IMG/VR virus record: IMGVR_UViG_2740892439_000009 | Origin: a virus | Lineage: Duplodnaviria > Heunggongvirae > Uroviricota > Caudoviricetes | Reading direction: 5' to 3' (one strand) | DNA length: 64,000 bases | In this document: positions 3,381 through 58,668 of the stretch, piece after piece | Layout: every line of letters starts with the position of its first letter | Position numbering within the stretch: position 1 is the stretch's first letter | Notes under the pieces: model-generated | Database searches by the model: none | Seen by the model: the letters and a program-made list of their open reading frames with translations, nothing else | Told to the model about the DNA's origin: nothing | Position numbers and translations under genes: made by a program

Positions 3381-3381
3381 T

Positions 3382-3765: not shown

Positions 3766-3839
3766 CTCAATTGGTAAGTATATACTTACTATTAGCGCAA
3801 TGAATGCGTAGAATTAACGGAAAAAGGAGTTTTCCATCA

Positions 3840-4586: not shown

Positions 4587-4647
4587 ATTGTGATAACCCA
4601 AGAGGCCCATGGATGGGCCTCTGTATGAGTTTAAAAGGATTTAAACC

Positions 4648-4965: not shown

Positions 4966-5315
4966 TTTCCCGCGATGAATCCGGGACAAGGACCGTCTCA
5001 ATAGATCTCGGATTCTATTTCAGTCGTGTAGTTGCTCACTACGCCGTGTCGCCATTAGAGCTACTGAACGTTCCTCTCACGATGTTCTGGATGCTCAGTC
5101 GCAATATAGACCGTCTGCGTGCGGAAGAGGATGTCCGCAACTTACAAGTCGCTCGTGCGTCCCAGGCGGATGGCGAGGCTGTGAAGGCGTTCATGGAGGG
5201 TTTGCAACTCAGGATTGGAAGACCAGTCGTAACAGATAAAGTCTACGATCCAAGCCAGGATAAGGCAGACCCTGACGCCAAAGAGCAACTGATGCAAATA
5301 TTTGGCAGAGGATGA
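4929..5315 (+). CDS. Possible T-region reached by -1 frameshift from the G-like chaperone
   Basis: -1 frame opens at 4929 inside the 3' end of the G-like ORF and runs to 5315; no canonical slippery heptamer seen. Confidence 0.25.
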   Translation, partial: RKRKSGWRRGKVISRDESGTRTVSIDLGFYFSRVVAHYAVSPLELLNVPLTMFWMLSRNIDRLRAEEDVRNLQVARASQADGEAVKAFMEGLQLRIGRPVVTDKVYDPSQDKADPDAKEQLMQIFGRG

Positions 5316-5622
5316 CAAGGGAATGTCACAAAACGTAGAGTTTATCCTGTCGCTGGAAGACAAACAGTTTACAGCGTCAATCGATCGTGCGGGGAAACTG
5401 CTTACTCGATTTGGTGAGCAGGTAACAAAGCCTGCTCAAAAAATCCAAACCTTTGAACGCTCTTTGGGTTCGGTCGCCCGTATCATTGGCGTTCTGGAAA
5501 GCAAGCTCGATTCTACGGCAGATAAACTACAGGATGTAGCTGCCGGTTTTGAGCTTGCTTCAGATGCTACGCGTAAAATGCGTGGCAACATCACCAGCCT
5601 CAATTCTGGTCTTAAAGCCTGA
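5302..5622 (+). CDS. Tape measure protein, N-terminal segment
   Basis: Coiled-coil-like ORF; the next frame opens at 5616 and continues the same sequence character. Confidence 0.45.
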   Translation: MAEDDKGMSQNVEFILSLEDKQFTASIDRAGKLLTRFGEQVTKPAQKIQTFERSLGSVARIIGVLESKLDSTADKLQDVAAGFELASDATRKMRGNITSLNSGLKA

Positions 5623-5681
5623 TTGAGCGCGTCGATACGACAACTTCTTCAGTAGATAAACTCACCGCGTCATTACGTAAA

Positions 5682-7415
5682 GTGCAATCAGAGCTAAATG
5701 ATTTCTCTGATTGGGCGACCTATGCAAGCAAAAGCGCAAGCCGCTTTGGTACGGAGGTCAAAGAAGCCTCTGCGTCCGTGAGTGGCATGAATACGCGCCT
5801 TAATACCACGACGAAGCGACTCAGTAATTGGGGTGTCACAACGAGTCAGGCTGCCGAGGGACTGAAAAAGGTTCGTGAGCAGATGGACGAAGTTATCGGA
5901 CGTCAGCAACTGATTAGCAAGCCGGTACGCGTTCGTACATCTGGAAGTGGCGATGGTGGTAGCGGGCGGCGTAGCGGCGCTTCTGGCCATAGCGGTAAAA
6001 GTAACGAAGGAGGTATGTTCTCTGGCCTTCGTGGCAACATTTTCCTGCTTGGCGAGATCGGAGATGCAGCCAGAACGGTTACTGACATCATGTTTGGGTG
6101 GCAGAAGCCTATTGTTGAAGCTGCGGCCGAAATGGAACGTATGCGGGTGATGCTTCGAGGGTTGAATAAGGAGAAGTCCAACCCGGGCCAGGCTGCCGCT
6201 GATGATATGAAGTACATCGTAGACATGGCTCAAAATGCGCCGTTCGCGATGCAGGCGTTAACAGACTCCTTCGTGAAGTTTCGTTCTGCTGGCTTAGATC
6301 CAACCGATGGTTCTCTGAAGGCGCTGGTGGACTCCGTTGCTCGTTTTGGTGGTGATAGTGAGCTGTTGAAACGTGCGGCTGTGGCCGTTCAGCAGATGTC
6401 CGGTAAGGGCGTTGTGTCAATGGAAGAGCTACGTCAGCAATTAGGTGAAGCCGTTCCTAACGCGATGCAGGCAATGGCAGACGCCGCAGGCATCACTATG
6501 GGGGAACTGACTAAAGCCGTTGCCAGCGGTACGGTTGAGGCAAAACAGGCGTTGTCTCTGATGTTTGTTGGTCTGCGTGCGGAGAATGAGAACGCAGCGA
6601 AAGACATGATGCAAACCTACACAGGTGCGCTGGCGCAACTTCAGACGTCATTCACGTTATTTGCTGATCGGGTTGGTCAGGCCGGATATCTGGATTCTCT
6701 ATCGAAGGGGATGAAAGAACTGGCTTCAATCATGAATAGCGCCGAAGGGATTTCGTTTGCCAATTCTTTAGGTTCGGGGTTAACAACGGCAATCGATGGG
6801 TTGCGTCAGCTTGCTCAATGGTTAGCAAAGAACCAAGAGCTGGTAATTAATCTCGGTAAGGTCGTGGCCGCGATGGTTGCGTTCAAACTGATGCGAGCAG
6901 GGATCATGGGGGTAGTTGGCGCTGGGAGCCAGATGGTTAGCACCTTTGCCACGATGGCGACCGCCATACAGACTCCATTTAACCTCGGCGCTACAGCAGT
7001 AACTCGATTCAATCGTGCGGCACGTATGGGGCTGGCTCCGATCCCCTCTCTTATTTTCGCCATCCGTGGGGCGATTACGGGGCTTAAAGGCGCTTTTGCT
7101 GGATTAACGGCGTTCATTGCAGCAAACCCTATAGGGGCAGCATTTACAGTTGCCACTGTAGCTGTTGCTGGCCTAATCACGTACATGACCATGCTCCGCA
7201 GCGAAACTTCAAAGGTCGTTGACGAGATTAGGAAAATACCAGAAGCGATGACAGCGGCCAAACGTGCACAAATGGCCGACCGCGCAGAAAAGCTCGAAAA
7301 GCAGATTCTTGCTGATCAACGAGCATTAAAAACTGGTGAGGGTGTTAATTACGTATCTAACTCTGCCGGTGTTATTACTCACAAAGAGTCGAAGCTGACA
7401 TCGAAGCACGCCTGA
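5682..7415 (+). CDS. Tape measure protein, middle segment
   Basis: Gly/Ser-rich stretch, long hydrophobic segments, position upstream of M/L/K/I/J. Confidence 0.65.
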   Translation: MQSELNDFSDWATYASKSASRFGTEVKEASASVSGMNTRLNTTTKRLSNWGVTTSQAAEGLKKVREQMDEVIGRQQLISKPVRVRTSGSGDGGSGRRSGASGHSGKSNEGGMFSGLRGNIFLLGEIGDAARTVTDIMFGWQKPIVEAAAEMERMRVMLRGLNKEKSNPGQAAADDMKYIVDMAQNAPFAMQALTDSFVKFRSAGLDPTDGSLKALVDSVARFGGDSELLKRAAVAVQQMSGKGVVSMEELRQQLGEAVPNAMQAMADAAGITMGELTKAVASGTVEAKQALSLMFVGLRAENENAAKDMMQTYTGALAQLQTSFTLFADRVGQAGYLDSLSKGMKELASIMNSAEGISFANSLGSGLTTAIDGLRQLAQWLAKNQELVINLGKVVAAMVAFKLMRAGIMGVVGAGSQMVSTFATMATAIQTPFNLGATAVTRFNRAARMGLAPIPSLIFAIRGAITGLKGAFAGLTAFIAANPIGAAFTVATVAVAGLITYMTMLRSETSKVVDEIRKIPEAMTAAKRAQMADRAEKLEKQILADQRALKTGEGVNYVSNSAGVITHKESKLTSKHA

Positions 7416-40068: not shown

Positions 40069-40143
40069 GATGGTGTAGCTCAGCGGTAGAGCAGTTGGCT
40101 GTTAACCAACTGGTCGGTGGTTCGAATCCACCCACCATCGCCA
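40069..40143 (+). tRNA. tRNA-Asn (anticodon GTT)
   Basis: Acceptor GATGGTG/CACCATC, D-arm GCTC..GAGC, anticodon loop CTGTTAA, T-loop TTCGAAT, encoded CCA. Confidence 0.8.
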
Positions 40144-40148
40144 ATTTA

Positions 40149-40235
40149 GGGGAGTTAGTCCGTAGAGGTAGCGGTGTAGACTGTAAATCTACTGTCATTG
40201 CGACTCGGGTGGTTCGACTCCATCACTCCCCACCA
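40149..40235 (+). tRNA. tRNA-Tyr (anticodon GTA), long variable arm
   Basis: Acceptor GGGGAGT/ACTCCCC, anticodon arm GTAGA-CTGTAAA-TCTAC, T-loop TTCGACT, CCA. Confidence 0.75.
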
Positions 40236-40239
40236 AATT

Positions 40240-40315
40240 GCCGGTTTAGCTCAGTTGGTAGAGCGCTGCCTTGTAAGCAGGATGTCAGCGGTTCGAGTCC
40301 GCTAACCGGCACCAA
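40240..40315 (+). tRNA. tRNA-Thr (anticodon TGT)
   Basis: Acceptor GCCGGTT/AACCGGC, D-arm GCTCAGTTGGTAGAGC, loop CTTGTAA, T-arm AGCGG-TTCGAGT-CCGCT, CCA. Confidence 0.7.
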
Positions 40316-40538
40316 TACAACGATAAGATCATTACGGTTAATCGTCGTTCATGTGCACAATGACTGGTCGAAAGGTAGTGATCTTACCGTTGTGGTGGAT
40401 TCGCAGACTGATGCGATAGCTTTCTTGGATGTTAGGGAAATGCGGCCGCAAATCTTCCCTTTCGCGAGCGGTGATCGTCCGTAGTCCTAATTGGCTGCAC
40501 CGTATGCCGGAGATTCAGTACCGGCCACCACAACGGCC

Positions 40539-40625
40539 GGAGAGTAGGGAGCATGGTGCTCAAGCGGTCTTGAAAACCGTCCCATTGCGCAAGCGATGAT
40601 GGTTCGATTCCATTACTCTCCGCCA
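40539..40625 (+). tRNA. tRNA-Ser (anticodon TGA), long variable arm
   Basis: Acceptor GGAGAGT/ACTCTCC, anticodon loop CTTGAAA, T-loop TTCGATT, CCA. Confidence 0.75.
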
Positions 40626-40696: not shown

Positions 40697-40779
40697 AACG
40701 CTGTGATAGACAATTACGGCAGACGTTCTTAACCATAGCTTGCTAACATCCTAGCAACACTTTTTTCAGCGCAAAATTC

Positions 40780-40803
40780 AAAGGGGCTTCGGCCCCTTTT
40801 CTT
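40780..40803. terminator. Bidirectional rho-independent terminator
   Basis: AAAGGGGC ttcg GCCCCTTTT flanked by T/A runs on both strands. Confidence 0.6.
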
Positions 40804-42014
40804 CAAAAAAGTTTTATAAATTCATAATTCTGGTCAATTAAGGATTCAATACACACCATGCAAAAATCTACATCGTCAAAATCAGGTGTGTAATATTCAT
40901 CCTCATAACATTCATTTAGACCTTCAATCAATTTTTCTTTAAAAACTCCCCACGTTTCAATATGAACCATTTCCATATAAGGCGCATGTGTATGTGCTTG
41001 CAATACATCCCAGGTGTCTATAACCTCGATCCGCGGCTTGCAATTAATTTTTTCTAAATATGCCTTCCCAGAATTGTAAATTTTCGACATTGATGCCCCA
41101 AAACCTGATGGTTGGTAATGAGTGTAAATGTCATAAATTTTTTGTCCTATTCTAGGGAGTTGAGAAGCATTGGATATTTGTGGCGAATGAAAGTATCGCT
41201 CTATGGAAGAAAACGCAGAAACATTAACTAGAGTAATCGTATATGGCGCTAAAGTTCTCTCATTCAAATTTCTACATAAAATAGCAAACCCATGGCTATT
41301 AGTCTTTTCACCGTCTGAGGACATTTTTGCCATGCTGGCTTTAATAACATTCAATTTCGAATGTAAACGAGAAGTTGAAGTCGGTTTATTATACATTTCA
41401 TCATCATACAAACATATATGAAACCCACCAAGATGACGAAATGAGAACTTGAGTGCTTCTTCCGCAATAACTAATTTATTAATATCTAAAGGAGTAAGTG
41501 ATACGTTACCTTGTAAATCATAGCAAGGTTCTAAACATAGAAAGTTTTTCTTCTGCCACACGATCATATTAAAAATAAAGTGTCTAACCAGGGGTGGCCA
41601 GTCAGGTGATATAAGTACATTGGTAATATCTCCATCAGACAAGTATGACAAGTAACTTTTTAGTTCCGCAGCATATGCCACCAACTCAGTTCCAGCTTCC
41701 CTTGTTGGTGTTGAAAAGTTTTTTAACTCAATAAGAACTAAGGATTCATTCTCTGTTGAATAAGCAACAACATCAGGTCTTAATATCTCAGATTTTGTTG
41801 CTGAGATATTCTCATCATCTGTCATTAAATGTAACAATGTTATGTTCTTTAAACAAAACTGATAACTCTCCTTAATTTTTTTCTCTTCGGGTCTTTTCGG
41901 ATTAAATTCGTTTAATTTATCAATATTGATGATTGAATTATATAATCCATCTTGATCAGATAATTTGTCAATTATCCAATTTTGCATTTCCTTTTCGCTT
42001 AAAAATATTGACAC
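40803..42014 (-). CDS. Candidate defence effector: 403-aa protein with putative PD-(D/E)xK nuclease motif
   Basis: RPDVVAY ... LVLIELK arrangement in N-terminal third; GTG start preceded by GGGAG; markedly AT-rich. Confidence 0.5.
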   Translation of the reverse strand: MSIFLSEKEMQNWIIDKLSDQDGLYNSIINIDKLNEFNPKRPEEKKIKESYQFCLKNITLLHLMTDDENISATKSEILRPDVVAYSTENESLVLIELKNFSTPTREAGTELVAYAAELKSYLSYLSDGDITNVLISPDWPPLVRHFIFNMIVWQKKNFLCLEPCYDLQGNVSLTPLDINKLVIAEEALKFSFRHLGGFHICLYDDEMYNKPTSTSRLHSKLNVIKASMAKMSSDGEKTNSHGFAILCRNLNERTLAPYTITLVNVSAFSSIERYFHSPQISNASQLPRIGQKIYDIYTHYQPSGFGASMSKIYNSGKAYLEKINCKPRIEVIDTWDVLQAHTHAPYMEMVHIETWGVFKEKLIEGLNECYEDEYYTPDFDDVDFCMVCIESLIDQNYEFIKLF

Positions 42015-42040
42015 TAATTAGGCTCCCGTTAAACCAAAAA

Positions 42041-42862
42041 TTAAAAATCTTGCTTTACTTTATCCATGGTCAGAATTTTGCTAATAATTGAAGATTCAAA
42101 TCCATCTAAACCTGAGAGAAAGTTAATTAGCTTTTGGATATGTTGTTCTTTAGGTATAAGTATATATTTTATATCATTGAACTCAAAATCAATGCCAAAC
42201 TTTGAAAATTCTGAGCTAATTTTTGCTTTGTCATCAGAAGTGATAACACGCTCCAAACTCAGACTAGGCCATAAATCACCAATAAAAGGAGCTGGCACAT
42301 AACGCCACTCTTTCTCGTCTGCATATATATAATTCTCTATTGTTTTATTATCTTTTCGCTCTAGCTTGCCTCTGTAATTTTTCATATAACGCAGTAAATT
42401 ATATAGATCAGAGTATTCTGCTTTCAATTTCTCAAACTCTATTCTGTTTTTGGTATCTAAATTTCCTCTAGCCTTCCAAAGCGGCACCAACTTATTTTTA
42501 ATAAGTCGAATTCTGGCATTGTATTTAGAAAATATTTCACTACTCTTATTCATATATAGAACTGGGTGTAGACCTTTCTTTTCCGCCCAAGACTTAGTTA
42601 GCCCAAGACCGAATTCTCCATATTTTCCGCTATGATCTCTGATTTGTGATAGTTTTATGTCACAAAACGATACCATTGGTACTGCAAACCTCCTACGTCC
42701 CCCGACTCCTCTTATTTCCTCGCGAGCAAGAAATGGTTTAAAATATTTCTCAGCCAATATGCTATAGAAAGCATCTTCGTTTTTTGTAAAATGAAACAAC
42801 GTGGTTGGATGAAGACTATAAACAGATTCAACATTCGCATCAGGATTTTCAAGGATAGTCAT
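42041..42862 (-). CDS. Candidate defence partner protein (about 273 aa from ATG; track ORF extends to 42907)
   Basis: ATG (MTILENPD) preceded by AGGTG; LFHFTK...YG.FGLGL motifs; AT-rich; co-oriented 26 bp upstream of the 403-aa gene. Confidence 0.5.
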   Translation of the reverse strand: MTILENPDANVESVYSLHPTTLFHFTKNEDAFYSILAEKYFKPFLAREEIRGVGGRRRFAVPMVSFCDIKLSQIRDHSGKYGEFGLGLTKSWAEKKGLHPVLYMNKSSEIFSKYNARIRLIKNKLVPLWKARGNLDTKNRIEFEKLKAEYSDLYNLLRYMKNYRGKLERKDNKTIENYIYADEKEWRYVPAPFIGDLWPSLSLERVITSDDKAKISSEFSKFGIDFEFNDIKYILIPKEQHIQKLINFLSGLDGFESSIISKILTMDKVKQDF

Positions 42863-42938
42863 TTTACACCTTGTGGAAAGCCAGTTTAGTTCTGTAAATA
42901 GTATCACACGACAGGCGGCTATTCTTCTATCAATAAAT

Positions 42939-43609: not shown

Positions 43610-44713
43610 ATGAAAAATAGCTTTGACAGAGCACGCGCTGCGGAGAACACCTCAAAAGAGGCGATAGAGTATCTCGAAAGAGCATCTCAAATGCAGGCCG
43701 TTATGATCTCGCAGGTTAGCAATGACATGAGATTCTCGGACGCATTCATGTTATTCACTCGCTTATCTCTGCTGATAACCAGACGTCGGCCAGAGATCGC
43801 TGTTCATTGTATTTTGATACATGTTTTGCCGCACATTGCCGATGTAAAAGTAAGTGACATTAATAGGTTCATGGTGAACCAACTGGTCAACCCACTAATA
43901 CTGGATGGCAAAATTGTTATGGGCCGCCGCGTTTTCTCTCTGATGAAGCAGTTCCTTAGCTGGTGCGCCTTCCAGGGGATGATAGACGTGTCACCGTTAA
44001 ACGATATGTCACTTAACAAAGTTGCCGGTGGCGCAAAGCCCACACCTCGCGAGCGGAAGCTGACCGACGCAGAGGTATGGGTGTTCTGGAATATATGGGA
44101 CTACTTCAATGTGTGCGCTGGTACAAAATGGGCGGCCAGGCTGTGTCTTGTATCAGCAAGACGACCTGATGAAGTACTGCGGGCTAAAAAAAGTGAGTTC
44201 AATCTTAAGCGTGGGGTTTGGAATCAAGGCAAAAGAAACAAGTCAGCACGTGAGCATTCGCTGCCTTTAAGCACATTAATGCGCACATGCATTGAAGAGT
44301 TGTTCGAATACGGTAAAGACAGCCAGTGGCTCGTGCCTTCGAATAAAAAAATCGGGAAAGACCTTCCTATGTCTAAAGTGGCAATAGCCCAGGCATTACG
44401 TCGTATTCTGGAACGACCAGAACTGATGGAGCTTGAGCCATTTACACCCCGAGATTTGCGCCGTACTGCGCGTAGTTACTTCCCAGCATTAGGCATAAGC
44501 CAGGAGGTATCACGCAAAATCATGAACCACAGTCTTGAGGGGATAGATCGGGTCTACGACCGGCACGATTATATGGACGAGATGCGAGACGCCTTAGAAA
44601 GTTTCTCGACGTACATCGCATCAATCGTAGAGCAACCGGATTTAGACGAAATTGACCACAAATTCAAGGGAGATCGTCTATCAACAGAGCTTATTCGTGT
44701 AAATTTTTCATAG
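43610..44713 (+). CDS. int: Tyrosine recombinase (integrase/resolvase family)
   Basis: C-terminal R...H..R...Y pattern (DLRRTARSYF, MNHSLEG, VYDRHDY). Confidence 0.7.
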   Translation: MKNSFDRARAAENTSKEAIEYLERASQMQAVMISQVSNDMRFSDAFMLFTRLSLLITRRRPEIAVHCILIHVLPHIADVKVSDINRFMVNQLVNPLILDGKIVMGRRVFSLMKQFLSWCAFQGMIDVSPLNDMSLNKVAGGAKPTPRERKLTDAEVWVFWNIWDYFNVCAGTKWAARLCLVSARRPDEVLRAKKSEFNLKRGVWNQGKRNKSAREHSLPLSTLMRTCIEELFEYGKDSQWLVPSNKKIGKDLPMSKVAIAQALRRILERPELMELEPFTPRDLRRTARSYFPALGISQEVSRKIMNHSLEGIDRVYDRHDYMDEMRDALESFSTYIASIVEQPDLDEIDHKFKGDRLSTELIRVNFS

Positions 44714-45094
44714 AGACTTTATGGCCTCAACAACCTTTTGTGATGCGCCTTTCTCTTTACCGAATCGCTCGTTATATGCAGCAAGAACCTGTTTTTCGTC
44801 CTCGTTAAGAGGAGCGGTGCCTTCTTTGTATAAAAATGCTGCGAGTTCAGGTTGGCGTTCTTCCAGCACCATCATCATAAGACGACTTGGCTCAATACCC
44901 AGCGCCAGCGCCAACGGACGAACCTTATCGATAGGCAAAGGAATTTTGCCACTTTTAATTAAAGAAAGGTTGTTGGCATTTTTATAACCAATAAGTCTGG
45001 CTATTTGGGCCTGACTCATAGGTGAGGATTCAATCAGCCCTGCGATAAAAGCAGCATAGCGACTTTCTATAAATTCAATCTTGTTGTCAGACAT
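44708..45094 (-). CDS. XRE-family HTH transcriptional regulator (repressor-like)
   Basis: HTH segment SQAQIARLIGYKNANNLSLIKSG. Confidence 0.6.
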   Translation of the reverse strand: MSDNKIEFIESRYAAFIAGLIESSPMSQAQIARLIGYKNANNLSLIKSGKIPLPIDKVRPLALALGIEPSRLMMMVLEERQPELAAFLYKEGTAPLNEDEKQVLAAYNERFGKEKGASQKVVEAIKSL

Positions 45095-45126
45095 TGTTAC
45101 AACCTTTGCGCGTTCAATTCTCTCTG

Positions 45127-45140
45127 GTAAGTGCTTACCG
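45127..45140. promoter_or_regulatory. Palindrome GGTAAGTGCTTACC upstream of the regulator gene
   Basis: Perfect 14-bp palindrome in divergent intergenic region. Confidence 0.4.
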
Positions 45141-45345
45141 ATATTACATCAAAGGTTAGGGTTGTAAAGCTATTATCATTTTTTTCGATAGGCACTTAAA
45201 AGACCGGTTAAAGGCCATTGCACGGAGAAAAATTAGCCCAAAATAGGTAAGAAAATTAACTTGCATATGATATGAATGTATTCAGTATTGATATAGATTT
45301 TAGTAGTATTCCTTACCATAGTATAAGTTAGAATGGATTGATTGA

Positions 45346-45558
45346 ATGAACACCACTATTCCCAGCCTAATCGCTCTTGAGATCGGACACGTACAGAAAT
45401 TAGCTGATGAGTGTGTAGCTGACATCCTCACCGATCTACCGAATGAGCAGATTCAGGTTGGTGTGAATGACACAACTGGCTTTATATTCGAACTTAACAA
45501 CAAACGCTTCACGCTTCTCAATACCGGCTCCGGGTCTTTAGCCGTCAGAATCTGTTAA
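45346..45558 (+). CDS. Small hypothetical protein divergent from regulator
   Basis: 70-aa ORF. Confidence 0.35.
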   Translation: MNTTIPSLIALEIGHVQKLADECVADILTDLPNEQIQVGVNDTTGFIFELNNKRFTLLNTGSGSLAVRIC

Positions 45559-45656
45559 CCCCTCTTCTCCCTGCGCGAATGGCTTAGTTCCCTGTTCGCG
45601 CAGTGCTACATTAAACACACTAGTAAATAATTTGTTTTCATAACAAAGGATTAGCC

Positions 45657-47036
45657 ATGTCTAAAAAACGTTCCATCAAAGAGGTTCAGGACTTCCGTGA
45701 CAGTGTAAAACGAGTAGTCGCTCTCCTTTCAGGTAAAAACATCCCTGTTGCAGAACGAGGGGACGACGCTTATGTACGCTATAACGATGATGGAGAGCCA
45801 ATTCTCGTAAACATCCCATCAATCCCGGATAACGCAACACCGGCATTGATGAATGCTGTGCGCGGATTTCTCGATCATGAGGTTGCTCACATTTTGTTTA
45901 CCGATATTCGTGTGTCCAACAAAATGAGAGAAAAAGGACGCGTTCCTTCCTGGTCGCTATGGAATGCCTTAGAAGACGTGTTCATCGAGCGAAAAATGGG
46001 GCAGGTCTTTAACGGAACAAGACGTAATCTGATGGCAACTCAGCGCCTTATAATCGAAAAAGTCTTTAAACCAAAGGCTTCAGAGGCTATTGCTTATTGT
46101 GGCAAAGATCAGCGCGCGCTTTTTCTAAACTTCTTTCTCTGTCCGGTTGTAAGAGCCTGGGATGGCCAAGCACCGTTCGTAGATTTCATGGATGAATATT
46201 GGCCTGTCATTGAGAAACCAATTTCATTATTAAAAGAACATGGTATCGATGTGGCCGTGCGTAACATGTCTTGCACCGAGGATTGTGTAAAGGTGGCTGC
46301 GACCATAGCTAAGATCCTCAAAGACACTGAAAGTGAAAGCAAAGGTAAGGAGTCAGCTCCGGGAAAAACTTCCGATCCTTCAGACGCTGACCAGACGGAT
46401 GCCTCTGGAGAAAACAATGAAGACAACGAAGATCATGAGACACCCTCATCGTTAGATAATCACAAATCTATCGAATCAGAATCACATAGTAAGCACAAAC
46501 ATGATAATAACGACAGCGATGATTCAGATAATTCTGAATCATCAGAAACAATATTCGATGATACAGAAAATGATAAAGAGGTATCAGATTCTGATGCTTC
46601 TGATAACGCGGCGTCAGAATCATTAACCGCTGACCACGAAAAAAGAAAAACGACAGAAGACGGCTCTTCAGATATCCCAACTCCGTCAAAAATGAGTCTG
46701 GAAGAGGCTTTAGAGGAGCTGGATAGCATAGAAGATGAAGTCGGAGGCATGACAGAAGATGCTCTATCCGAAACGATTAAAAGCGAGTTAACAGAAAGCT
46801 CGAAAAGCGAATACAGGCCATACAATCGCTCATACGACTTCATCGGCTCGATTGATCAGGCAGAAGCCATATCAAACGGCTTATTAAAACATTCTCCGAT
46901 ATTGATTTGGGAGGATATCCAATCAGCCGCTATCGCATCGTTCCTGAAGGCAACCAGCTCTTCGACAAATATATTGAAAAGCATCTTTCGTCAGGTGTTT
47001 CGTCGACGCTGGCAAAAGACCTGGAGCGAGCAATAG
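45657..47036 (+). CDS. CobT-like protein, N-terminal segment with acidic Ser/Asp-rich linker
   Basis: Long acidic low-complexity tract; continues into vWA segment in another frame. Confidence 0.45.
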   Translation: MSKKRSIKEVQDFRDSVKRVVALLSGKNIPVAERGDDAYVRYNDDGEPILVNIPSIPDNATPALMNAVRGFLDHEVAHILFTDIRVSNKMREKGRVPSWSLWNALEDVFIERKMGQVFNGTRRNLMATQRLIIEKVFKPKASEAIAYCGKDQRALFLNFFLCPVVRAWDGQAPFVDFMDEYWPVIEKPISLLKEHGIDVAVRNMSCTEDCVKVAATIAKILKDTESESKGKESAPGKTSDPSDADQTDASGENNEDNEDHETPSSLDNHKSIESESHSKHKHDNNDSDDSDNSESSETIFDDTENDKEVSDSDASDNAASESLTADHEKRKTTEDGSSDIPTPSKMSLEEALEELDSIEDEVGGMTEDALSETIKSELTESSKSEYRPYNRSYDFIGSIDQAEAISNGLLKHSPILIWEDIQSAAIASFLKATSSSTNILKSIFRQVFRRRWQKTWSEQ

Positions 47037-47764
47037 CAAGCAGAAACAGAGTTCAGTTTATACCGGGCCAGCGTCGGGGGCGCATTCATGGTTCTAGTAT
47101 CTACAGATTAGCAATGAATGATGATCGCGTGTTTCGTAAAAAAGAAGAATCTAAAGCCGTTAACGCCTGTGTTCAACAAGTGATTGATTTATCAGGTTCA
47201 ATGAGTGGTATAACGATACAATTGGCTCTTGCAAGTGCATATACCATCGCCGATGCCCTTGATCGAATAAATGTTCCCAACATTATCACCGGCTTCACTA
47301 CATTTGGTAGTCATATGGCGGCAGGAGAACTTAAGGCTGTCAAGTATGAGTTCTCTCGCTTTGAATCTTTAATGCTACCTATCATCAAAAATTGGAATGA
47401 AAAGGTAAATTCTCGCGAAGTTCGCTCACGTATGGGGTGCGTAGGCTACACATTCCCACTTCTTAATAACGTGGATGGTGAAAGCATAGCCAGCCTTGCA
47501 TCGTTATTTTCCGGTCGCATGGAGGACAGGAAGATCATGCTTGTTCTGAGTGACGGCGCGCCGTGGGCTGTTGGGAGAGGTTTTGACGCTCATTTGCGTT
47601 CGGTTGCGAAGCAAATTGAAACGCAGACTGACATTGATTTGATGGCAATTGGCATCATGACTGACGCACCGGAGAGATTTTACTCAAATCATGCCCTGGT
47701 AACGAGCGTTGATAGTCTTGGTTCATCTGTAGTTACTGAACTATCTCGTATCATTTTGAAGTGA
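46907..47764 (+). CDS. von Willebrand factor A domain segment (CobT-like C-terminus)
   Basis: MIDAS motif VIDLSGSMSG; overlaps previous ORF by 130 nt in a different frame. Confidence 0.55.
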   Translation: MGGYPISRYRIVPEGNQLFDKYIEKHLSSGVSSTLAKDLERAIASRNRVQFIPGQRRGRIHGSSIYRLAMNDDRVFRKKEESKAVNACVQQVIDLSGSMSGITIQLALASAYTIADALDRINVPNIITGFTTFGSHMAAGELKAVKYEFSRFESLMLPIIKNWNEKVNSREVRSRMGCVGYTFPLLNNVDGESIASLASLFSGRMEDRKIMLVLSDGAPWAVGRGFDAHLRSVAKQIETQTDIDLMAIGIMTDAPERFYSNHALVTSVDSLGSSVVTELSRIILK

Positions 47765-47780
47765 ATAAAACAGCCTTAAT

Positions 47781-47802
47781 GATAAGTAACCACTTACGAT
47801 AG
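47781..47802. promoter_or_regulatory. Intergenic inverted repeat GATAAGTAACCACTTACGATAG
   Basis: TAAGT / ACTTA arms. Confidence 0.35.
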
Positions 47803-47859
47803 TTAATGGTATATTTATATAAGAAGTTGAACGCTCATTAGAGAACAAAGGAAAAACGC

Positions 47860-49095
47860 ATGACGACTACTGCACTGCAAAATGAAAAAAATCATTCTGA
47901 TTACCTTGTTTGCAAGTGGTGCGGCAAATCATTTCACTATTTTAAGTCCCATGTAGCCAATGGTAATTGCGAGGGCATTCCTGAGTCAGTAAAAGATGCC
48001 GATCCTGACACCGTACTGAAAATGTACACAACGCAGTTTCCAGATGAACCAACGCTATCGAAAAAGGCACTTGATGCAATTCAAGCTAAACGTGCCGAGC
48101 AAAAAAGCGAAATGGCCAAATCTTCTAGCTTGACCAGTAGCCCTGGCTACACAGGCACAGTTGAGTACAAGACAGATCTGGTCGCAGCTCACGAACTGCT
48201 AAACGTAACGGTGGAAGAACTCGGAACAAAACGTGGGACGCCGCTCATGGTTAGCGTCAACGTCAATACGCCGTATCCAGAGTTCGTTCCCGAAGTGAAG
48301 AAAGGCTACGTATATGGCGACTTCGAACTGATCAAAGATATTTTCATGATGCTTGAACTTGGCATACCTGGCTATTTGTGGGGTCATGCAGGAACAGGCA
48401 AATCGTCATTGCCTACACAGCTATGTGCTTTGCTCAATCGTCCGTTGATCCGTGCCCAACATACAGCATCAATGGAAGAGGCACATGTTACGGGGCAAAT
48501 TCTGGCGCGTGATGGCTCTACGTATTTCGAACCTGGCTTGCTTGCGCTCGCAATGAAGCATGGCTGGGTTTACCTCGCGGATGAATACGACTTTGCGTTT
48601 CCACAAATTCTTGGCGTGTATCAGCCAGTGCTGGAAGGTGAAGCGTTAGTCATCAAAGAGGCGACTCCAGAATGGCGTCGCATTACTCCGCATGAACGGT
48701 TTGCTTTCATTGGCACTGGCAACACGAACGGATCTGGTGATGAAACCGGCTTGTACCAGGGTACAAACATCCAGAACGCCGCGAACTTTTCGCGTTTTGG
48801 CATCGTTTCGAATGTGAAATACATGAGCAAAGACGCAGAGATCAACATGTTGATAAATGCCGGTATCGTGGATGAATACGCAGAAAAGATGGTTAAGTTT
48901 GCCGGTATCGTTCGCGATGGATACGAAGAACACCTTATCAGTCAGCCAATTGGCCCTCGTGAACTTTTGTTGTCGGCCAAGATTGGAATGATGCGAGGCG
49001 ACTTTGTGACAGGTATTGAGCGTTCTTTCATTAACAAACTCCCTTCAGCTTCTGCACAAGCGGCTCGTGAAGTTGTTCAAAAAATATTTGGTTGA
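47860..49095 (+). CDS. AAA+ ATPase, CobS/MoxR-like
   Basis: Walker A GHAGTGKSS; Walker B-like VYLADEYD. Confidence 0.6.
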   Translation: MTTTALQNEKNHSDYLVCKWCGKSFHYFKSHVANGNCEGIPESVKDADPDTVLKMYTTQFPDEPTLSKKALDAIQAKRAEQKSEMAKSSSLTSSPGYTGTVEYKTDLVAAHELLNVTVEELGTKRGTPLMVSVNVNTPYPEFVPEVKKGYVYGDFELIKDIFMMLELGIPGYLWGHAGTGKSSLPTQLCALLNRPLIRAQHTASMEEAHVTGQILARDGSTYFEPGLLALAMKHGWVYLADEYDFAFPQILGVYQPVLEGEALVIKEATPEWRRITPHERFAFIGTGNTNGSGDETGLYQGTNIQNAANFSRFGIVSNVKYMSKDAEINMLINAGIVDEYAEKMVKFAGIVRDGYEEHLISQPIGPRELLLSAKIGMMRGDFVTGIERSFINKLPSASAQAAREVVQKIFG

Positions 49096-49274
49096 TCGTG
49101 CGTAAAGGATGTTTCGGCTCTCTTATCGCTGCTTCTGAAACTGGTAAGGCTTGTCTGGTGTGTCCAGACAAGCCCGATTGTCACCAATCAGCAAAAGAAG
49201 TTGCGATTTCGATGCATGGGAAGTTCGTAGCTTCCCCAATGACAAAATCAAAAAAACCAGAAAGGTAAAAACAC

Positions 49275-52200
49275 ATGAAGGCACTGATGGTTCGAACTGA
49301 CTTCTCACTTGGGGAGTCGGCTTTAAAAGCAGAAAACGCGGTGAAGATTGCCAGAGAAGCTGGCTACACCGCTGTAATTTCAGCAGATAGCATGAATATT
49401 GCGAGCGTTATTCCACTACAACGTGCCGCTGGTGACGACATGGCGGTTATTTGTGGTGTGAAACTAAACATTGTTGATGATCCCACATACGAGCACCGGG
49501 TTAAACTTGCTAAAGAATCTATGAGATGTATGGAATCATTAGAGCGGGGACGTAACTACTCGTTTACCGCTCTAATTAAAAATGAGCAAGGATATCGCGA
49601 CATCTGCGAACTAATGACGGTGGCCAACACACGAGAACAGTTCTACTTTGTACCGCGTCTCTCGCTCGAACAGTTGGTTTCTACATATGCCAAAGGCAAC
49701 ATCATCCTGCTCACTTCCGACATCGGTAGCGTGTTCCAACGCAACGATTTTGCAAAAATCATAAGCTCACTGATTACAGCGGGCGGGAAAGACAACTTCT
49801 ATAGCGTGGTTTATCCGCACCCTACCCCATTCTACGACCAGATTAACGTCCGGGCGATGAAAGTCGCCAGCGCATTGAAAATAGAGCCAGTGGCGTTCTA
49901 TCCCGCTTATTACGAATCGATCGACGATGCAGACATTAAAGACATTGCGCACATGGTTACGAACAACATAAAAATCGACCAGCCGCATCGTCTGCGTATC
50001 CCCCACCAGCGAGATAACGCCATCAATGGTCGTCGCCATCTCCTTGAGGCGCTTAAAGCCTTCTCCGTTCGCATGGATGTGCCGGTAACAGCTGCAATGG
50101 CCTCAACAACGCAGGACTCCATTATCGATGCCTGCACATGGCGCTGGCATGAATTGCCACCAGCACTGCCCAAGATGGCAGACGACGAACCTGCAACGCT
50201 GATGAAACTGGCTGTTGCAGGGCTGCGTAAACGTCTTACCACAAAAGAGTTTGGATACACACCACCTGCTTCTGAGAACAGGGTTTATGTTGAGCGGCTA
50301 AAGTACGAAATGGACACGCTGACTCGCCTGGGATTCTGTGGTTACTTCCTGATGGTACGCGATCTGATGAATCACAGCCGTGAAACTGGCATTCCTGTCG
50401 GGCCTGGTCGTGGTTCCTCTGCCGGTTCTCTGGTGGCGTGGTGCATAGGCATAACCAACGTCGACCCAATCCGTCACGGTCTTCTGTTTGAGCGTTTCAT
50501 CAACCCTGAGCGTCTCGACTTGCCGGATGCGGACTTGGACTTCAGCCAGGCACGTCGCCATGAGGTGATCGAGTATCTGAATGAACGCTACGGCGAAGAT
50601 TACGTTGCAGGCATTCCGAACTTCACCTATCTGGGCGCGGCATCTGCGCTGCGTGACACTGCACGTATTTACGGTGTCGATGCTGCGGATATGGCGGTAT
50701 CCAAAGAGTTCAAGAATATGGAGGACGACAGCCTGTCTCTGGAAGAGCTGCGCGAGCAACTGGCCAGCCTGGACAAATACGCCACGAAAAACCCGGAAGC
50801 GTTCAAAGCGGCGTGTAAGCTGCAAAGCCTGATGCGTGGTTTTGGTCGTCACGCTGCGGGGATGATCGTCGCTGGCGTTCCATTAGTAGAGCGCACGCCC
50901 GTCGAGCTGCGTGGCAATGCTCGATGTATTGCGTTCGATAAACGTTACTGCGAGGCGATGGGGCTGATTAAGTTGGACGTTCTCGGTCTGGCAACACTCG
51001 ATCTTCTGGATAGCGCGAAACGCTACATCAAAGAGAGTACCGGTGAATACATCAATCTCGACGCTATCCCACTGGACGATCGCAAGGTTCTGGATGGGTT
51101 CGCTGCAGGGTACACGCAGGGCGTATTCCAGCTGGAGTCCGGCCCCATGCGTAAGCTGCTTAAAGATCTGGGCGGTGGCATCGAGCCAATGAGTTTCAAA
51201 ACCGTTGTCGCAACTACCGCCCTCTTCCGACCGGGACCGATTCAATCCGGCATGTTGGATGACTATGTTTCCGTTGCGAAAGGATTTATGACGCCTACAT
51301 CACTACATCCTGTCTTGGATGAACTGACCTCTGAAACAAATGGAGTGATTCTCTATCAGGAACAAACGATGAACGCAACAAGGCTTCTTGCTGGTTTCAC
51401 AATGGCCGAGGCGGATGGTGTGCGTTCAGCAATCGGTAAGAAGAACATGGAAAAGATGAGGAGCATGGGTGAGAAATTTGTCATTCAGGCTCAAGCTGGG
51501 TGGATCGACGTAGAGCTTGAAAATGGCGCAATACAACGGATTCATCGCGCAGAACATTTTAAATGCGAGGACGGTACTCTGAGGACAGTTGAAGAGGCGT
51601 TGGAGCATGGAGTGAAGCTGCCAATGCCAGTTGTGCGCGTTACAACGTCACATCCAGGTCTGTCTGAGACGAAGGCAAAAGAGATATGGACTGCATTTGA
51701 GAAAAACGGAGCCTATCAGTTCAATAAATCACACTCCGTTGCTTATTCTTTAATCAGTTATCAGTCTATGTGGCTAAAGACGCACTACCCTGCTGAGTTC
51801 TTCGCAGCTGCGCTCACCATTCTGGGCGAGGATAAGCATCAGGGGCTGGTGAAGGATGCGCTGACCTATGGCATTCGCGTATTGCCACCAGACGTTAATG
51901 TGTCATCTAACCGAATTGAGATCCGCACACTCGAAGACGGCAGTCAGGCACTGTATGCGCCATTCTCTGCTGTGAAAGGCTGTTCTGAAAATGGTTGTCA
52001 GGCAATTATGCGTGCGCGTGAGAAAGTTGGTGGCAAATTCGAGTCAGTGGCACAATTCGATGAAGCGGTCGAGAAGCGTGCATGTAACAGTCGTGTACGC
52101 GAGTCGCTTCATAAAGTAGGGGCTTTTGCGTCAATTGAGCCAGGCAGTCTGCCAGCAACTGATCCTGAACGACTGCGCGACCAGGCTGAGCTGATGGGCA

Positions 52201-57594: not shown

Positions 57595-58668
57595 ATGGCA
57601 AAAGGAAAATCCGCACTGGCACTTGCTCTGAAAAAGAAAATCGGTAGCAACGACGAAATTCAGAAAGTAACTCATTGGATTGACACAGGCTTTCCTCCGT
57701 TAAACAAAGCTATTTCTGGTCGTTACGATGGCGGCTTCCCATGTGGTCGTATCGTCGAAGTATTCGGTCCTCCAAGCGCGGGGAAAACGTTCCTTGCAAC
57801 AGCAGCGATGATCTCCGCTCAAAAACAAGATGGTCTGGCGGTATTCCTCGATCATGAAAACAGTTTTGACGTTGGCCTGGCTGTAGCCAATGGCCTGAAC
57901 GCAGATGAGGATGACGGTCAGTGGGTATACAAGCAGCCAGATACCTTCGAAGACTCTGTAGAGTTGATCGGCACAATACTTAAATTGGTTCGTGATGAAG
58001 AGCTTATCCCCGAATCAGCACCTATCTGTATCGTGGCTGACTCTCTTGCGTCTATGGTTCCGAACTCCAAAGCCGAGAAGTTCGAAAAGATGGCTGAAGG
58101 CACTGCCAAAGACAAAGATCAGCTAAACATGAACGACAATACGGCACTGGCTCGTGCGACGAGTGCGAACTTCCCTACTCTGGCTTTGTGGGCACGCAAA
58201 TACAACGCCTGCATCATCTTCTTGAATCAGGTTCGCACAAAAATCGGTGTAATGTTTGGCGACCCTACTACGTCGCCAGGTGGAGATTCACCGAAGTTCT
58301 ACGCTTCTGTACGTATCCGTCTTGGTGCATCGGTGATGAAGGATGGTAAAGAGAAGATCGGCCAGGACGTAGGCGCAGAATGCATCAAAAACAAAGTTGC
58401 ACCACCGTATGGCAAATGCACCTGGAAATTCTACTTCGATCCTACTCGTGGCCTCGACGTTATCGAATCGCTCGTCGAGTACATGCTGGAAGAAGGATAC
58501 CTGCCAAAGAACGCCAGCGGGCGAGTTGAAATTGGTGACAAGAAATACACAAAATCGCAGATCGTCGAGATGTATCGGGAGAAGCCACTGGCTGAAATCA
58601 TTGCGGCTTTGCAGGCAATCGACGACCGAAGAGCAAAAGACAACCCCACCGAGTCAGTAGAAGAGTAA
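57595..58668 (+). CDS. RecA/UvsX-like recombinase
   Basis: GRIVEVFGPPSAGKT Walker A region and overall pattern parallel RecA. Confidence 0.75.
   Translation: MAKGKSALALALKKKIGSNDEIQKVTHWIDTGFPPLNKAISGRYDGGFPCGRIVEVFGPPSAGKTFLATAAMISAQKQDGLAVFLDHENSFDVGLAVANGLNADEDDGQWVYKQPDTFEDSVELIGTILKLVRDEELIPESAPICIVADSLASMVPNSKAEKFEKMAEGTAKDKDQLNMNDNTALARATSANFPTLALWARKYNACIIFLNQVRTKIGVMFGDPTTSPGGDSPKFYASVRIRLGASVMKDGKEKIGQDVGAECIKNKVAPPYGKCTWKFYFDPTRGLDVIESLVEYMLEEGYLPKNASGRVEIGDKKYTKSQIVEMYREKPLAEIIAALQAIDDRRAKDNPTESVEE

What the first reader, a model, noticed from the sequence alone, without database searches (positions are those of the whole stretch)
45657..49095. CobT-like vWA protein and CobS-like AAA+ ATPase pair
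A MIDAS-containing vWA domain (VIDLSGSMSG) sits C-terminal to a long acidic linker and is followed by an AAA+ ATPase with Walker A GHAGTGKSS. CobS/CobT-like pairs occur in diverse phages and their role there is unclear.
Basis: partly seen in the sequence, partly recalled or inferred. Interest (0 to 1): 0.4.

Follow-up and report, generated by a model that had tools for sequence, protein, structure and literature searches.

The report
Phage CobT-like/CobS-like gene pair, frameshifted
This is the well-known, widely distributed phage "CobT/CobS-like" gene pair (a metal-site adaptor protein plus an ATP-driven motor) on an E. coli SSU5-type phage-plasmid; it is ordinary here, and its first gene is broken by a one-base deletion that is probably a sequencing error.

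Summary
The gene pair is real and sits at the stated coordinates. Both quoted motifs are present. In this window, however, the CobT-like gene is not one ORF. A 1-nt deletion in a C-run at 46867-46868 splits it into 45657-47036 and 46907-47764. More than 200 near-identical plasmids and phages carry an intact 2109-nt gene. Restoring the C gives a 702-aa protein 100% identical to a cluster with 3,307 members. The window has at least eight other single-base homopolymer deletions, and five of them break other conserved genes, so a sequencing artefact is the likeliest cause.

The family assignment holds: Pfam CobT, CobT_C and AAA_5, and the best solved-structure hits are cobaltochelatase CobT and CobS. 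Neither protein is a true chelatase orthologue: both score far below the NCBIfam equivalog cut-offs, and no CobN is present.

The phage family keeps an N-terminal HExxH zincin-like domain that authentic CobT has lost. This lineage's CobS-like protein adds an N-terminal C2H2-like zinc finger. In several unrelated phage lineages the pair lies inside DNA-replication modules.

The most likely role is a MoxR/vWA-type ATP-driven protein remodeller, possibly a protease, and not B12 synthesis. The pair is already known and annotated, its function remains untested, and interest is low to moderate.

The parts
45346..45558 (+). Small upstream ORF (70 aa, phrog_2627, unknown function). It is the first gene of the rightward operon after the divergent repressor gene (44708-45094, minus strand).
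   Evidence: The same small ORF precedes the pair in Cyrano and PhiR41_1 and in distant prophage relatives.
45657..46331 (+). CobT-like N-terminal domain (residues 1-225). It is zincin-like, with HEVAH at nt 45876-45890 and NALEDVFIE at nt 45963-45989.
   Evidence: Pfam CobT E=1.8e-21. H74/E75/H78, N103, E106, D107, E111, G120 and N124 are at least 93% conserved in 147 relatives of 30-57% identity. The AF2 model has pLDDT 89.7 and shows a three-stranded sheet followed by the HExxH helix.
46332..46856 (+). Acidic, Ser/Asp/Glu-rich linker (residues about 226-400). It is low-complexity and hypervariable in length and sequence.
   Evidence: 30% D+E and 26% S+T. Column conservation is 0.10-0.23 over residues 226-375 (0.39 for 376-400), with 12-36% gaps across relatives. 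Orthologue lengths range from 594 to 864 aa.
46867..46868 (+). Frameshift site. The run is CC here and CCC in all close relatives. This 1-nt deletion moves the rest of the gene to the -1 frame.
   Evidence: The top E. coli plasmid hits all align 802 nt to the 801-nt query. There is no slippery heptamer in the overlap.
46869..47764 (+). CobT-like C-terminal part, read in the shifted frame. It is the CobT_C vWA domain. MIDAS residues are DLSGS at 47186-47200, GFTT at 47291-47302 and LSDGAP at 47546-47563.
   Evidence: Pfam CobT_C E=2.2e-83. PDB CobT 9uka_G E=1.3e-17 with the single sequence and 1.3e-60 with the profile. D511, S513, S515 and D633 are invariant and T548 is 96% conserved.
47860..49095 (+). 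CobS-like MoxR-class AAA+ ATPase (411 aa, intact). Features: C2H2-like CxxCx4Hx4H at 47911-47952, Walker A at 48382-48405, Walker B (YLADEYD) at 48571-48591, GTGNTNG at 48712-48732, R312 at 48784-48798 and R367 at 48952-48963.
   Evidence: AAA_5 E=2.1e-15, phrog_249 E=2.8e-106 and PDB CobS 9ujv_A E=4.7e-26. Motif conservation was measured in 111 homologues.
49092..49268 (+). Small Cys-rich ORF (phrog_6337) between the CobS-like gene and dnaE. It is also hit by a 1-nt deletion, GG to G at about 49229.
   Evidence: The orthologue SSU5_051 is annotated in phage SSU5.

Best explanation
The window is part of an E. coli SSU5-type phage-plasmid. Positions 45657-49095 encode the phage-type 'CobT-like/CobS-like' two-gene module. 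It is the first large gene pair of the early rightward operon, between the repressor/integrase switch and the phage's own DNA polymerase III alpha gene.

Protein 1 is 702 aa once the missing base is restored. It has three parts: an N-terminal zincin-like domain with an intact HExxH...E motif, a disordered acidic linker, and a C-terminal CobT-type vWA domain with a complete MIDAS metal site. Protein 2 is a MoxR-class AAA+ ATPase. Its catalytic motifs are all conserved and it has an N-terminal C2H2-like zinc finger.

Shown here: the family membership, the motifs, the synteny, and the one-base deletion in this copy. The deletion is most likely a sequencing or assembly error, because the same kind of homopolymer deletion breaks at least five other conserved genes in the window.

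Inferred mechanism, by analogy with CobST, NorQ/NorD, CbbQ/CbbO and midasin: the ATPase forms a hexameric ring that grips the vWA protein. The MIDAS site binds an acidic residue of a target protein. ATP hydrolysis then pulls or twists that target. The conserved HExxH domain adds a metal-dependent, possibly proteolytic, step.

Inferred role: an early-expressed remodeller acting on a phage or host protein connected with DNA replication or host takeover. It is not cobalt insertion into a B12 precursor.
For: Identity of the element:
- The region is 97.5-99.1% identical to Escherichia phages CMS-2020a, Cyrano and PhiR41_1, and 74.5% identical to SSU5.
- 219 complete E. coli genomes carry it, always on plasmids.

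Frameshift:
- Relatives have one 2109-nt ORF.
- The single gap is in a C-run.
- The repaired protein is 100% identical to P0001, a cluster of 3,307 members.
- The CobT-like match lies in a single frame in 83 of the 84 related loci examined, directly upstream of the CobS-like gene wherever that flank is held.
- Other 1-nt deletions in the window break the tape-measure gene, the helicase gene, the phrog_6337 ORF, the 5'-3' exonuclease gene and the SPFH gene.

Families.

Not a chelatase orthologue:
- TIGR01651 scores 76.6 bits against a cut-off of 759. TIGR01650 scores 87 bits against a cut-off of 558.
- No CobN-like ORF is in the window.
- No CobN or other cobalamin gene is annotated in the roughly 96 of 108 kb of the Cyrano genome examined. 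Its ribonucleotide reductase is the two-subunit alpha/beta (NrdAB) type, which by established knowledge is not B12-dependent.

HExxH domain:
- HExxH is kept in 142 of 146 representatives.
- It is also present in the cyanophage S-SM1, DLP_6, ICP2 and Rhizobium-phage homologues.
- Authentic CobT has DSMALR at the same place.

ATPase motifs and zinc finger: conserved across 111 homologues.

Context in replication modules of independent lineages:
- SSU5-like prophages and phage-plasmids, Nickievirus and Rhizobium phages: before DnaE.
- ICP2: before primase, helicase and PolA.
- T4-like cyanophage: between gp46/47 and gp45/44/62.
- DLP_6: between primase-helicase and ThyX.

Mechanistic precedent: the NorQD cryo-EM work. 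Iyer et al. 2021 describe a phage MoxR plus metallopeptidase-vWA pair.
Against: - No experiment on any phage CobST pair was found in the literature searched.
- The N-domain model has no significant Foldseek match to any solved zincin. No peptidase Pfam family is hit. Peptidase activity therefore rests on the motif and the topology alone.
- Much of the synteny with replication genes lies within a single large phage lineage and could reflect shared descent rather than function.
- Position in an early operon does not exclude a late or structural role.
- The frameshift cannot be proven to be an artefact without the reads. A real inactivating mutation in a decaying element would look the same.
- The absence of CobN from E. 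coli rests on established knowledge and was not tested here.
Confidence: 0.6

Rival explanations
1. Auxiliary metabolic genes: the viral CobS/CobT join a host CobN (or a Mg-chelatase H-type subunit) to form a cobaltochelatase and raise cobalamin supply during infection.
For: The closest solved relatives are cobaltochelatase CobS and CobT. This hypothesis is stated in the literature for viral cobST and for ICP2. PHROG places the CobS-like family under 'auxiliary metabolic gene'.
Against: - Scores are far below the equivalog cut-offs.
- No CobN is in the window or in the Cyrano annotation examined.
- By established knowledge, E. coli makes no corrin ring and has no CobN. CbiB is noted as absent from E. 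coli.
- The element's own ribonucleotide reductase is the two-subunit alpha/beta (NrdAB) type, which is B12-independent by established knowledge.
- The phage family keeps an HExxH motif and, in this lineage, a zinc finger. Authentic CobT lacks the HExxH, and the alignment to authentic CobS starts only after the zinc-finger extension.
- The pair sits in replication modules, not with metabolic genes.
Confidence: 0.1
2. Virion-assembly chaperone and maturation protease: the MoxR/vWA pair helps assemble head or tail structures, and the zincin domain processes structural proteins.
For: Iyer et al. 2021 proposed this for the MoxR plus metallopeptidase-vWA pair of jumbo phages. They cite a MoxR-vWA system needed for tail assembly in the Acidianus two-tailed virus.
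Against: In every context examined, the pair lies in the early/replication region and far from the structural genes. In this window the structural genes occupy roughly 1-27 kb, while the pair sits next to the repressor, integrase and dnaE.
Confidence: 0.15
3. The frameshift is real: this copy of the phage-plasmid is a decaying, defective element in which the CobT-like gene and several other genes are pseudogenes.
For: The deletion is in the sequence as given. Several essential-looking genes are also broken: tape measure, helicase and exonuclease. One other relative, L060, also shows a frame change in this gene.
Against: - Every gene-breaking difference found is a single-base deletion in a short homopolymer. 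Several share the same AG[C]C context, which is typical of a systematic base-calling error.
- Apart from this one gap, the 801-nt stretch around the site is identical to the best-matching plasmids (99.9% identity).
- None of the best-matching records lacks this base. The top hits all align 802 nt to the 801-nt query; one lower-ranked record, CP012114.1, also spans 801 nt and was not examined.
Confidence: 0.2
4. Programmed -1 ribosomal frameshift, or an evolved split, that yields a separate N-domain/linker product and a full-length product. This would resemble the frameshifting described for chlD, or the split cobT of haloarchaeal virus HHTV-2.
For: The frame change has the -1 geometry. Frameshifting in chlD and a split viral cobT are documented.
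Against: There is no X XXY YYZ slippery site in the overlap. All close relatives encode one continuous ORF with an extra C. No Shine-Dalgarno sequence or start codon sits where it could express the vWA part separately.
Confidence: 0.01

Closest known systems
Aerobic cobaltochelatase subunits CobS and CobT (CobNST; PDB 9ujv, 9uka, 21vu)
   Same: - AAA+ core of the same subfamily. The alignment covers CobS residues 39-315 at E=4.7e-26.
- CobT-type vWA domain with a complete MIDAS (profile E=1.3e-60).
- Acidic linker between the two CobT domains.
- Homologous N-domain (Pfam CobT; hhalign alignment).
- Adjacent genes.

   Different: - Scores are 7- to 10-fold below the NCBIfam equivalog cut-offs.
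- There is no CobN partner.
- The phage N-domain keeps DHEVAH where CobT has DSMALR.
- The phage CobS-like protein has about 100 extra N-terminal residues with a C2H2-like motif.
- It is encoded in a phage replication operon of a host that does not make corrins (the host point is established knowledge, not tested here).
Phage MoxR AAA+ plus metallopeptidase-vWA 'chaperone-cochaperone' pair (Iyer et al. 2021, jumbo phages); phrog_249 and phrog_1576; the cyanophage core genes cobS and 'peptidase' (T4-like GC 150 and 146)
   Same: - Same architecture: N-terminal HExxH domain, linker and vWA, with an adjacent AAA_5 ATPase.
- The N-domain fold recurs in CobT-like and vWFA-domain proteins from bacterial and haloarchaeal tailed viruses.
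   Different: - The SSU5, Nickievirus and related prophage branch adds the zinc finger to the ATPase.
- I could not fetch the jumbo-phage accessions to show directly that they belong to the same family.
NorQ/NorD, CbbQ/CbbO, RavA/ViaA and midasin (MoxR-class AAA+ with a MIDAS vWA partner)
   Same: - AAA_5 ATPase paired with a MIDAS-bearing vWA protein.
- Sequence hits to midasin, CbbQ, NorQ and NorD.
- A mechanistic model exists: a vWA finger in the ATPase pore and remodelling of a linker.
   Different: - Sequence similarity is only distant.
- Those systems act on defined enzymes or on the ribosome, and none has an HExxH domain.
- The target of the phage pair is unknown.

Membership tests
Cobaltochelatase subunit CobT (NCBIfam TIGR01651, equivalog) | Whole-protein score at or above the curated cut-off (759 bits) | tested here: not met
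   76.6 bits, and only the C-terminal part matches (profile positions 327-594). The N-terminal ORF gives no hit even at E<=10.
Cobaltochelatase subunit CobT | C-terminal vWA domain with MIDAS (DxSxS...T...D) | tested here: met
   Pfam CobT_C 279.7 bits. DLSGS, GFTT and LSDGAP are present and conserved.
Cobaltochelatase subunit CobT | N-terminal domain of the authentic CobT type (no HExxH; DSMALR in 21vu_H and 9uka_G) | tested here: not met
   The domain is homologous (Pfam CobT E=1.8e-21; hhalign E=1.2e-4), but the phage family has DHEVAH with H, E and H 97-98% conserved.
Cobaltochelatase CobNST | A CobN (or ChlH-type) porphyrin-binding subunit available in the element or the host | tested here: not met
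   None was found among the window's large ORFs. None is annotated in the 1-43,000 and 46,700-96,000 stretches of the Cyrano genome. For the E. coli host, the absence rests on established knowledge and was not tested here.
Cobaltochelatase subunit CobS (NCBIfam TIGR01650, equivalog) | Whole-protein score at or above the curated cut-off (558.55 bits) | tested here: not met
   87 bits.
MoxR-class AAA+ ATPase (Pfam AAA_5) with a vWA partner | AAA_5 domain with Walker A, Walker B, arginine finger and sensor residues, and an adjacent gene for a MIDAS vWA protein | tested here: met
   AAA_5 57.4 bits against a cut-off of 22. G175-K181, D241/E242, N288/N290, R312 and R367 are at least 97% conserved. 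The vWA gene lies 95 nt upstream. Many homologues also carry CbbQ_C.
MoxR-class AAA+ ATPase with a vWA partner | Physical complex: hexameric ring engaging the vWA protein, with ATP-dependent remodelling | not testable with these tools
   Inferred from CobST and NorQD precedents. The single-sequence AF2 model of the ATPase failed, with pLDDT 36.9.
Zincin (HExxH) metallopeptidase | HExxH on a helix, plus a downstream acidic third ligand, both conserved | tested here: met
   H74, E75 and H78 lie on helix 62-81. E106, D107 and E111 lie on helix 97-117. A three-stranded sheet precedes them. Conservation is at least 97% for these residues.
Zincin (HExxH) metallopeptidase | Fold or profile match to a known peptidase family | tested here: not met
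Known anti-phage defence systems (PADLOC) | Significant match to a defence-system protein model | tested here: not met
   The only hit was a marginal one to DrmE, E=0.0014 at 15 bits, lying across the linker and the start of the vWA part (residues 340-533). The ATPase gave nothing.
Programmed -1 ribosomal frameshift | Slippery heptamer in the overlap, and the frameshift conserved in relatives | tested here: not met
   No heptamer is present. Relatives have a continuous ORF.

The most novel reading that the evidence does not exclude
The phage 'CobST' module, which is a core gene pair of marine cyanomyoviruses and is present in more than 1,000 enterobacterial and Acinetobacter phage-plasmids, may have nothing to do with vitamin B12. 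On this reading it is an ATP-driven, MIDAS-targeted metalloprotease/remodeller that acts on a replication or host-takeover target early in infection. In the SSU5 and Nickievirus lineage the zinc finger on the ATPase would tether it to nucleic acid or to the replisome. Cellular CobT would then be a catalytically dead relative of this ancestral zincin-vWA protein.
Probability: 0.3. Interest if true: 0.6.

Novelty: already known. Interest (0 to 1): 0.25.

Why it matters
The pair is abundant. It is near-universal in T4-like cyanophages and present in 494 phage records and 1,019 plasmid records here. It is routinely counted as a 'B12 auxiliary metabolic gene' in viral ecology, although nobody has shown what it does.

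The E. coli phage-plasmids offer a genetically tractable setting in a host that, by established knowledge, has no CobN. PhiR41_1 is recorded with E. coli K-12 MG1655 as host, and Cyrano resides in LF82. In these systems the B12 hypothesis can be tested cleanly.

The intact HExxH motif, the zinc finger and the replication-module position argue that the current annotations are misleading. In the Cyrano record they are wrong outright: the pair is labelled 'dimethylbenzimidazole phosphoribosyltransferase' and 'cobalamin synthetase', which is a CobT/CobS name collision.

For this particular window, the practical point is data quality. The sequence carries systematic single-base deletions that break genes.

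Tried and rejected
- Single-sequence AlphaFold of the CobS-like protein failed, with pLDDT 36.9. No structural statement is made about its N-terminal extension.
- phmmer and profile searches of the N-domain against the PDB did not retrieve authentic CobT. I obtained the authentic N-terminal sequence by querying with a consensus recalled from memory, which made the tool print the real chain. I then aligned it locally.
- tblastn of the vWA domain against plasmids was meant to find an authentic cobT for comparison. It returned only phage-plasmids.
- PADLOC gave no defence-system match.
- Scanning all 23 N-domain sequences against Pfam at E<=10 gave no recurrent peptidase family.
- The promoter/terminator scan of 44900-49400 found nothing above the shuffled background, and no plus-strand terminator inside the pair.
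- Programmed frameshifting was considered and rejected.
- The LF82/Cyrano paper does not mention these genes in its main text; its transcriptome tables were not examined.
Full report
**What the window is**

Positions 45300-49300 are 97.5-99.1% identical to Escherichia phages CMS-2020a, Cyrano and PhiR41_1. They are 74.5% identical to Salmonella phage SSU5. The same DNA is found in 219 of 5,426 complete E. coli genomes, always on plasmids of about 100-120 kb, and in 194 PLSDB plasmids. The window is therefore part of an SSU5-type phage-plasmid. Its gene order is as follows:
- tail genes
- lysis, partition, helicase, primase and ligase genes
- a tRNA cluster
- an AbiGi-like island
- glutaredoxin, integrase and repressor (minus strand)
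- a small ORF, then the CobT-like and CobS-like genes, then another small ORF
- DNA polymerase III alpha, gp32-like SSB, 5'-3' exonuclease and RecA

**Checking the observation**

Both quoted motifs exist. DLSGS lies at nt 47186-47200 and GHAGTGKS at nt 48382-48405. The linker, residues 226-400, is 30% Asp+Glu and 26% Ser+Thr.

The CobT-like gene is split in this window. ORF 45657-47036 carries the N-domain and the linker, then runs on into 56 residues of out-of-frame sequence. The vWA domain is in the -1 frame, which is open from 46856.

Alignment with Cyrano, PhiR41_1 and plasmid NZ_CP061757 shows a single gap. GAAGCCCATATC in the relatives is GAAGCCATATC in the window, so one C is missing from the run at 46867-46868. 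The relatives encode one 2109-nt ORF of 702 aa. Restoring the C gives a protein 100% identical to P0001, a 90%-identity cluster with 3,307 member sequences.

The top E. coli plasmid hits all align 802 nt to my 801-nt query, and the best are otherwise identical. One lower-ranked record, CP012114.1, also spans 801 nt and was not examined. Among 84 related loci the CobT-like match lies in a single frame in all but one, L060, and sits directly upstream of the CobS-like gene wherever that flank is held. The overlap contains no slippery heptamer.

**Artefact or real mutation?**

Compared with its closest relatives, the window has further single-base deletions. Those in coding sequence are:
- 5617, tape-measure gene, CCC to CC
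- 33998, helicase, CC to C
- 49229, phrog_6337 ORF, GG to G
- 56411, 5'-3' exonuclease, CC to C
- 59039, SPFH gene, CC to C

Others lie at 40760, 59829 and 61350, and there are more in non-coding DNA. Every gene-breaking difference is a deletion in a short homopolymer. Five of them share the context AG[C]C.

This pattern fits a systematic base-calling error better than six independent inactivating mutations in conserved genes. I put the artefact reading at about 0.75-0.8, but only the reads can settle it.

**What the proteins are**

The CobT-like protein matches Pfam CobT (PF06213, E=3.5e-28) over its N-terminal part. It matches CobT_C (PF11775, E=2.2e-83) over the vWA domain. It covers PHROG phrog_1576 end to end.

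The CobS-like protein matches AAA_5 (E=2.1e-15) and phrog_249. Its nearest solved structures are cobaltochelatase CobS (9ujv_A, E=4.7e-26), then midasin, CbbQ and NorQ. For the vWA half the nearest are cobaltochelatase CobT (9uka_G, profile E=1.3e-60) and, distantly, NorD.

Neither protein is an orthologue of the real chelatase subunits. TIGR01651 (CobT) scores 76.6 bits against a cut-off of 759. TIGR01650 (CobS) scores 87 bits against a cut-off of 558.55.

**The N-terminal domain**

An exhaustive search of 1.84 billion representatives found 4,842 relatives at E<=0.001. Among 146 full-length representatives of 30-57% identity, 142 have HExxH within the first 200 residues and all 146 have DxSxS.

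Highly conserved positions are G70, F71, D73, H74, E75, H78, N103, E106, D107, E111, G120, N124 and R166.

An AlphaFold model built on 23 sequences has pLDDT 89.7. It shows a long helix, a three-stranded sheet, the HExxH helix (62-81) and a helix that carries E106 and E111 (97-117). This is the order of elements in a small gluzincin. Foldseek against viral models finds the same fold at the N-terminus of CobT-like and vWFA-domain proteins from sipho-, podo- and haloarchaeal tailed viruses and Gordonia phages.

The same HExxH...MIDAS layout is present in several other phage proteins:
- the cyanophage S-SM1 'peptidase' (HEVGH at 57, DWSGS at 389)
- the Stenotrophomonas DLP_6 'peptidase'
- ICP2 'CobT'
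- the Rhizobium phage CobT

Authentic CobT is homologous in this region but has lost the motif. Chains 21vu_H and 9uka_G read ...TRGLGDSMALRQARH...FDAVEQARVEAIGA.... The phage protein reads ...VRGFLDHEVAHILFT...WNALEDVFIERKMG....

Three results weaken the peptidase reading. There is no significant fold match to a solved zincin. There is no peptidase Pfam hit. The family profile does not find the CobT N-domain in the PDB. Peptidase activity is therefore plausible but unproven. Iyer et al. 2021 had already described a jumbo-phage MoxR ATPase paired with a vWA protein fused to an N-terminal metallopeptidase domain.

**The ATPase**

In 111 homologues of 43-98% identity the following are at least 97% conserved: Walker A (G175, G178, G180, K181), Walker B (D241, E242), N288/N290, R312 and R367. 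An active ATPase is therefore expected.

The alignment to authentic CobS begins only at residue 142. The extra N-terminal region contains C18, C21, H26 and H31 (CxxCx4Hx4H), conserved in at least 92% of homologues. The motif is also present in SSU5, in distant prophage relatives, and in phiK7B1 once its mis-called start is extended upstream. It is absent from the cyanophage, ICP2 and DLP_6 proteins.

**Context**

Around CobS-like homologues down to 44% identity the neighbourhood is the same. The order is integrase, HTH repressor on the opposite strand, a small ORF, CobT-like, CobS-like, sometimes a sigma-70-like protein, then DnaE, gp32, 5'-3' exonuclease and RecA. This holds both in plasmid-sized contigs and in integrated prophages. 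Nickievirus phiK7B1 and Rhizobium phages also place the pair just before DnaE.

In unrelated lineages the pair again sits among replication genes:
- ICP2, a podovirus: before primase, helicase and PolA
- T4-like cyanophage S-SM1: between gp46/47 and gp45/gp44/gp62
- DLP_6: between primase-helicase and ThyX

No plus-strand terminator or above-background promoter separates the two genes here. Both have AAGGA ribosome-binding sites.

**What it most likely does**

The architecture is that of MoxR/vWA machines. In those machines a hexameric AAA+ ring engages the vWA partner, the MIDAS site binds an acidic residue of a client, and ATP hydrolysis remodels the client. The NorQD cryo-EM study shows a vWA finger in the pore and force applied to a linker. 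I infer the same mechanism here, with the HExxH domain adding a metal-dependent, possibly proteolytic, activity. I infer a client connected with replication or host takeover.

The published alternative is that viral CobST borrows host CobN to raise B12. That fits this element poorly, for four reasons:
- No CobN is in the window or in the annotation of the Cyrano stretches examined.
- E. coli lacks corrin synthesis (established knowledge; CbiB is noted as absent from E. coli).
- The element's ribonucleotide reductase is the two-subunit alpha/beta type, which is B12-independent by established knowledge.
- The distinguishing motifs are not those of the chelatase subunits.

The virion-assembly proposal is not excluded, but gene position does not favour it. 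No experimental test of any of these ideas was found.

**Verdict**

The finding is real at the family level and correctly interpreted, but it is ordinary. The pair is annotated in hundreds of records and discussed in the literature. In this window one gene is broken, probably by a sequencing error. The residual interest lies in the unresolved function of a very abundant phage module, and in the clues assembled here that point away from B12 synthesis.

Noticed in passing
window 5617, 33998, 40760, 46867, 49229, 56411, 59039, 59829, 61350: The window has single-base deletions relative to all close relatives, always in short homopolymers. Five share the context AG[C]C. They break the tape-measure, helicase, CobT-like, phrog_6337, 5'-3' exonuclease and SPFH genes. 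This looks like systematic sequencing error across the whole window.
   Followed up: partly
window 57595-58668: RecA here is a plain 357-aa protein. In Cyrano and plasmid NZ_CP061757 the same gene is 2340 nt long. In the plasmid it is annotated as a LAGLIDADG homing endonuclease, which points to an intein, and that record holds about 1.26 kb absent from the window at this point. The window therefore appears to carry an intein-free allele.
   Followed up: partly
window 40803-42907 (minus strand): This is a two-gene island: an AbiGi-family protein (42041-42907, Pfam AbiGi E=2e-24) and a 403-aa partner with no Pfam hit. It lies between the tRNA cluster and glutaredoxin. It is present in NZ_CP061757 but replaced by other genes in Cyrano, so it is a variable spot that may carry defence cargo.
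   Followed up: partly
window 40069-40625: A cluster of four tRNA genes (Asn-GTT, Tyr-GTA, Thr-TGT, Ser-TGA). The Cyrano annotation lists three (Asn, Thr, Ser) at the corresponding place.
   Followed up: no
PDB chain 9zq6_B (AcrIIA26) versus CobT-like residues about 96-143 (window about 45942-46085): The N-domain family profile gives a weak hit (E=0.0016) to the anti-CRISPR AcrIIA26 over the NxxEDxFIE...G..N helix. This may be chance, or a distant relationship between this helix and an anti-defence protein.
   Followed up: no
L001 (Escherichia phage Cyrano OV696614.1) 3358-6797: The pair is annotated as 'dimethylbenzimidazole phosphoribosyltransferase' and 'cobalamin synthetase'. Those are the unrelated Salmonella/E. 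coli enzymes that happen to be called CobT and CobS, so this is a name-collision misannotation.
   Followed up: yes
L088 (Pseudomonas phage phiK7B1) about 7020-7118: The annotated start of the CobS-like gene is too far downstream. An in-frame GTG upstream adds VSDKIKCEICGEEVHSIANH..., which restores the conserved zinc-finger motif.
   Followed up: partly
L060 (IMGVR_UViG_2579778564_000015) 3630-5898: This is the only other relative in which the CobT-like match changes frame. The break falls within the linker region. It was not examined further.
   Followed up: no
window 51296-51690: A short stretch inside dnaE diverges sharply from Cyrano and NZ_CP061757, while the flanks are 97-99% identical. 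This suggests a mosaic or recombination patch.
   Followed up: no
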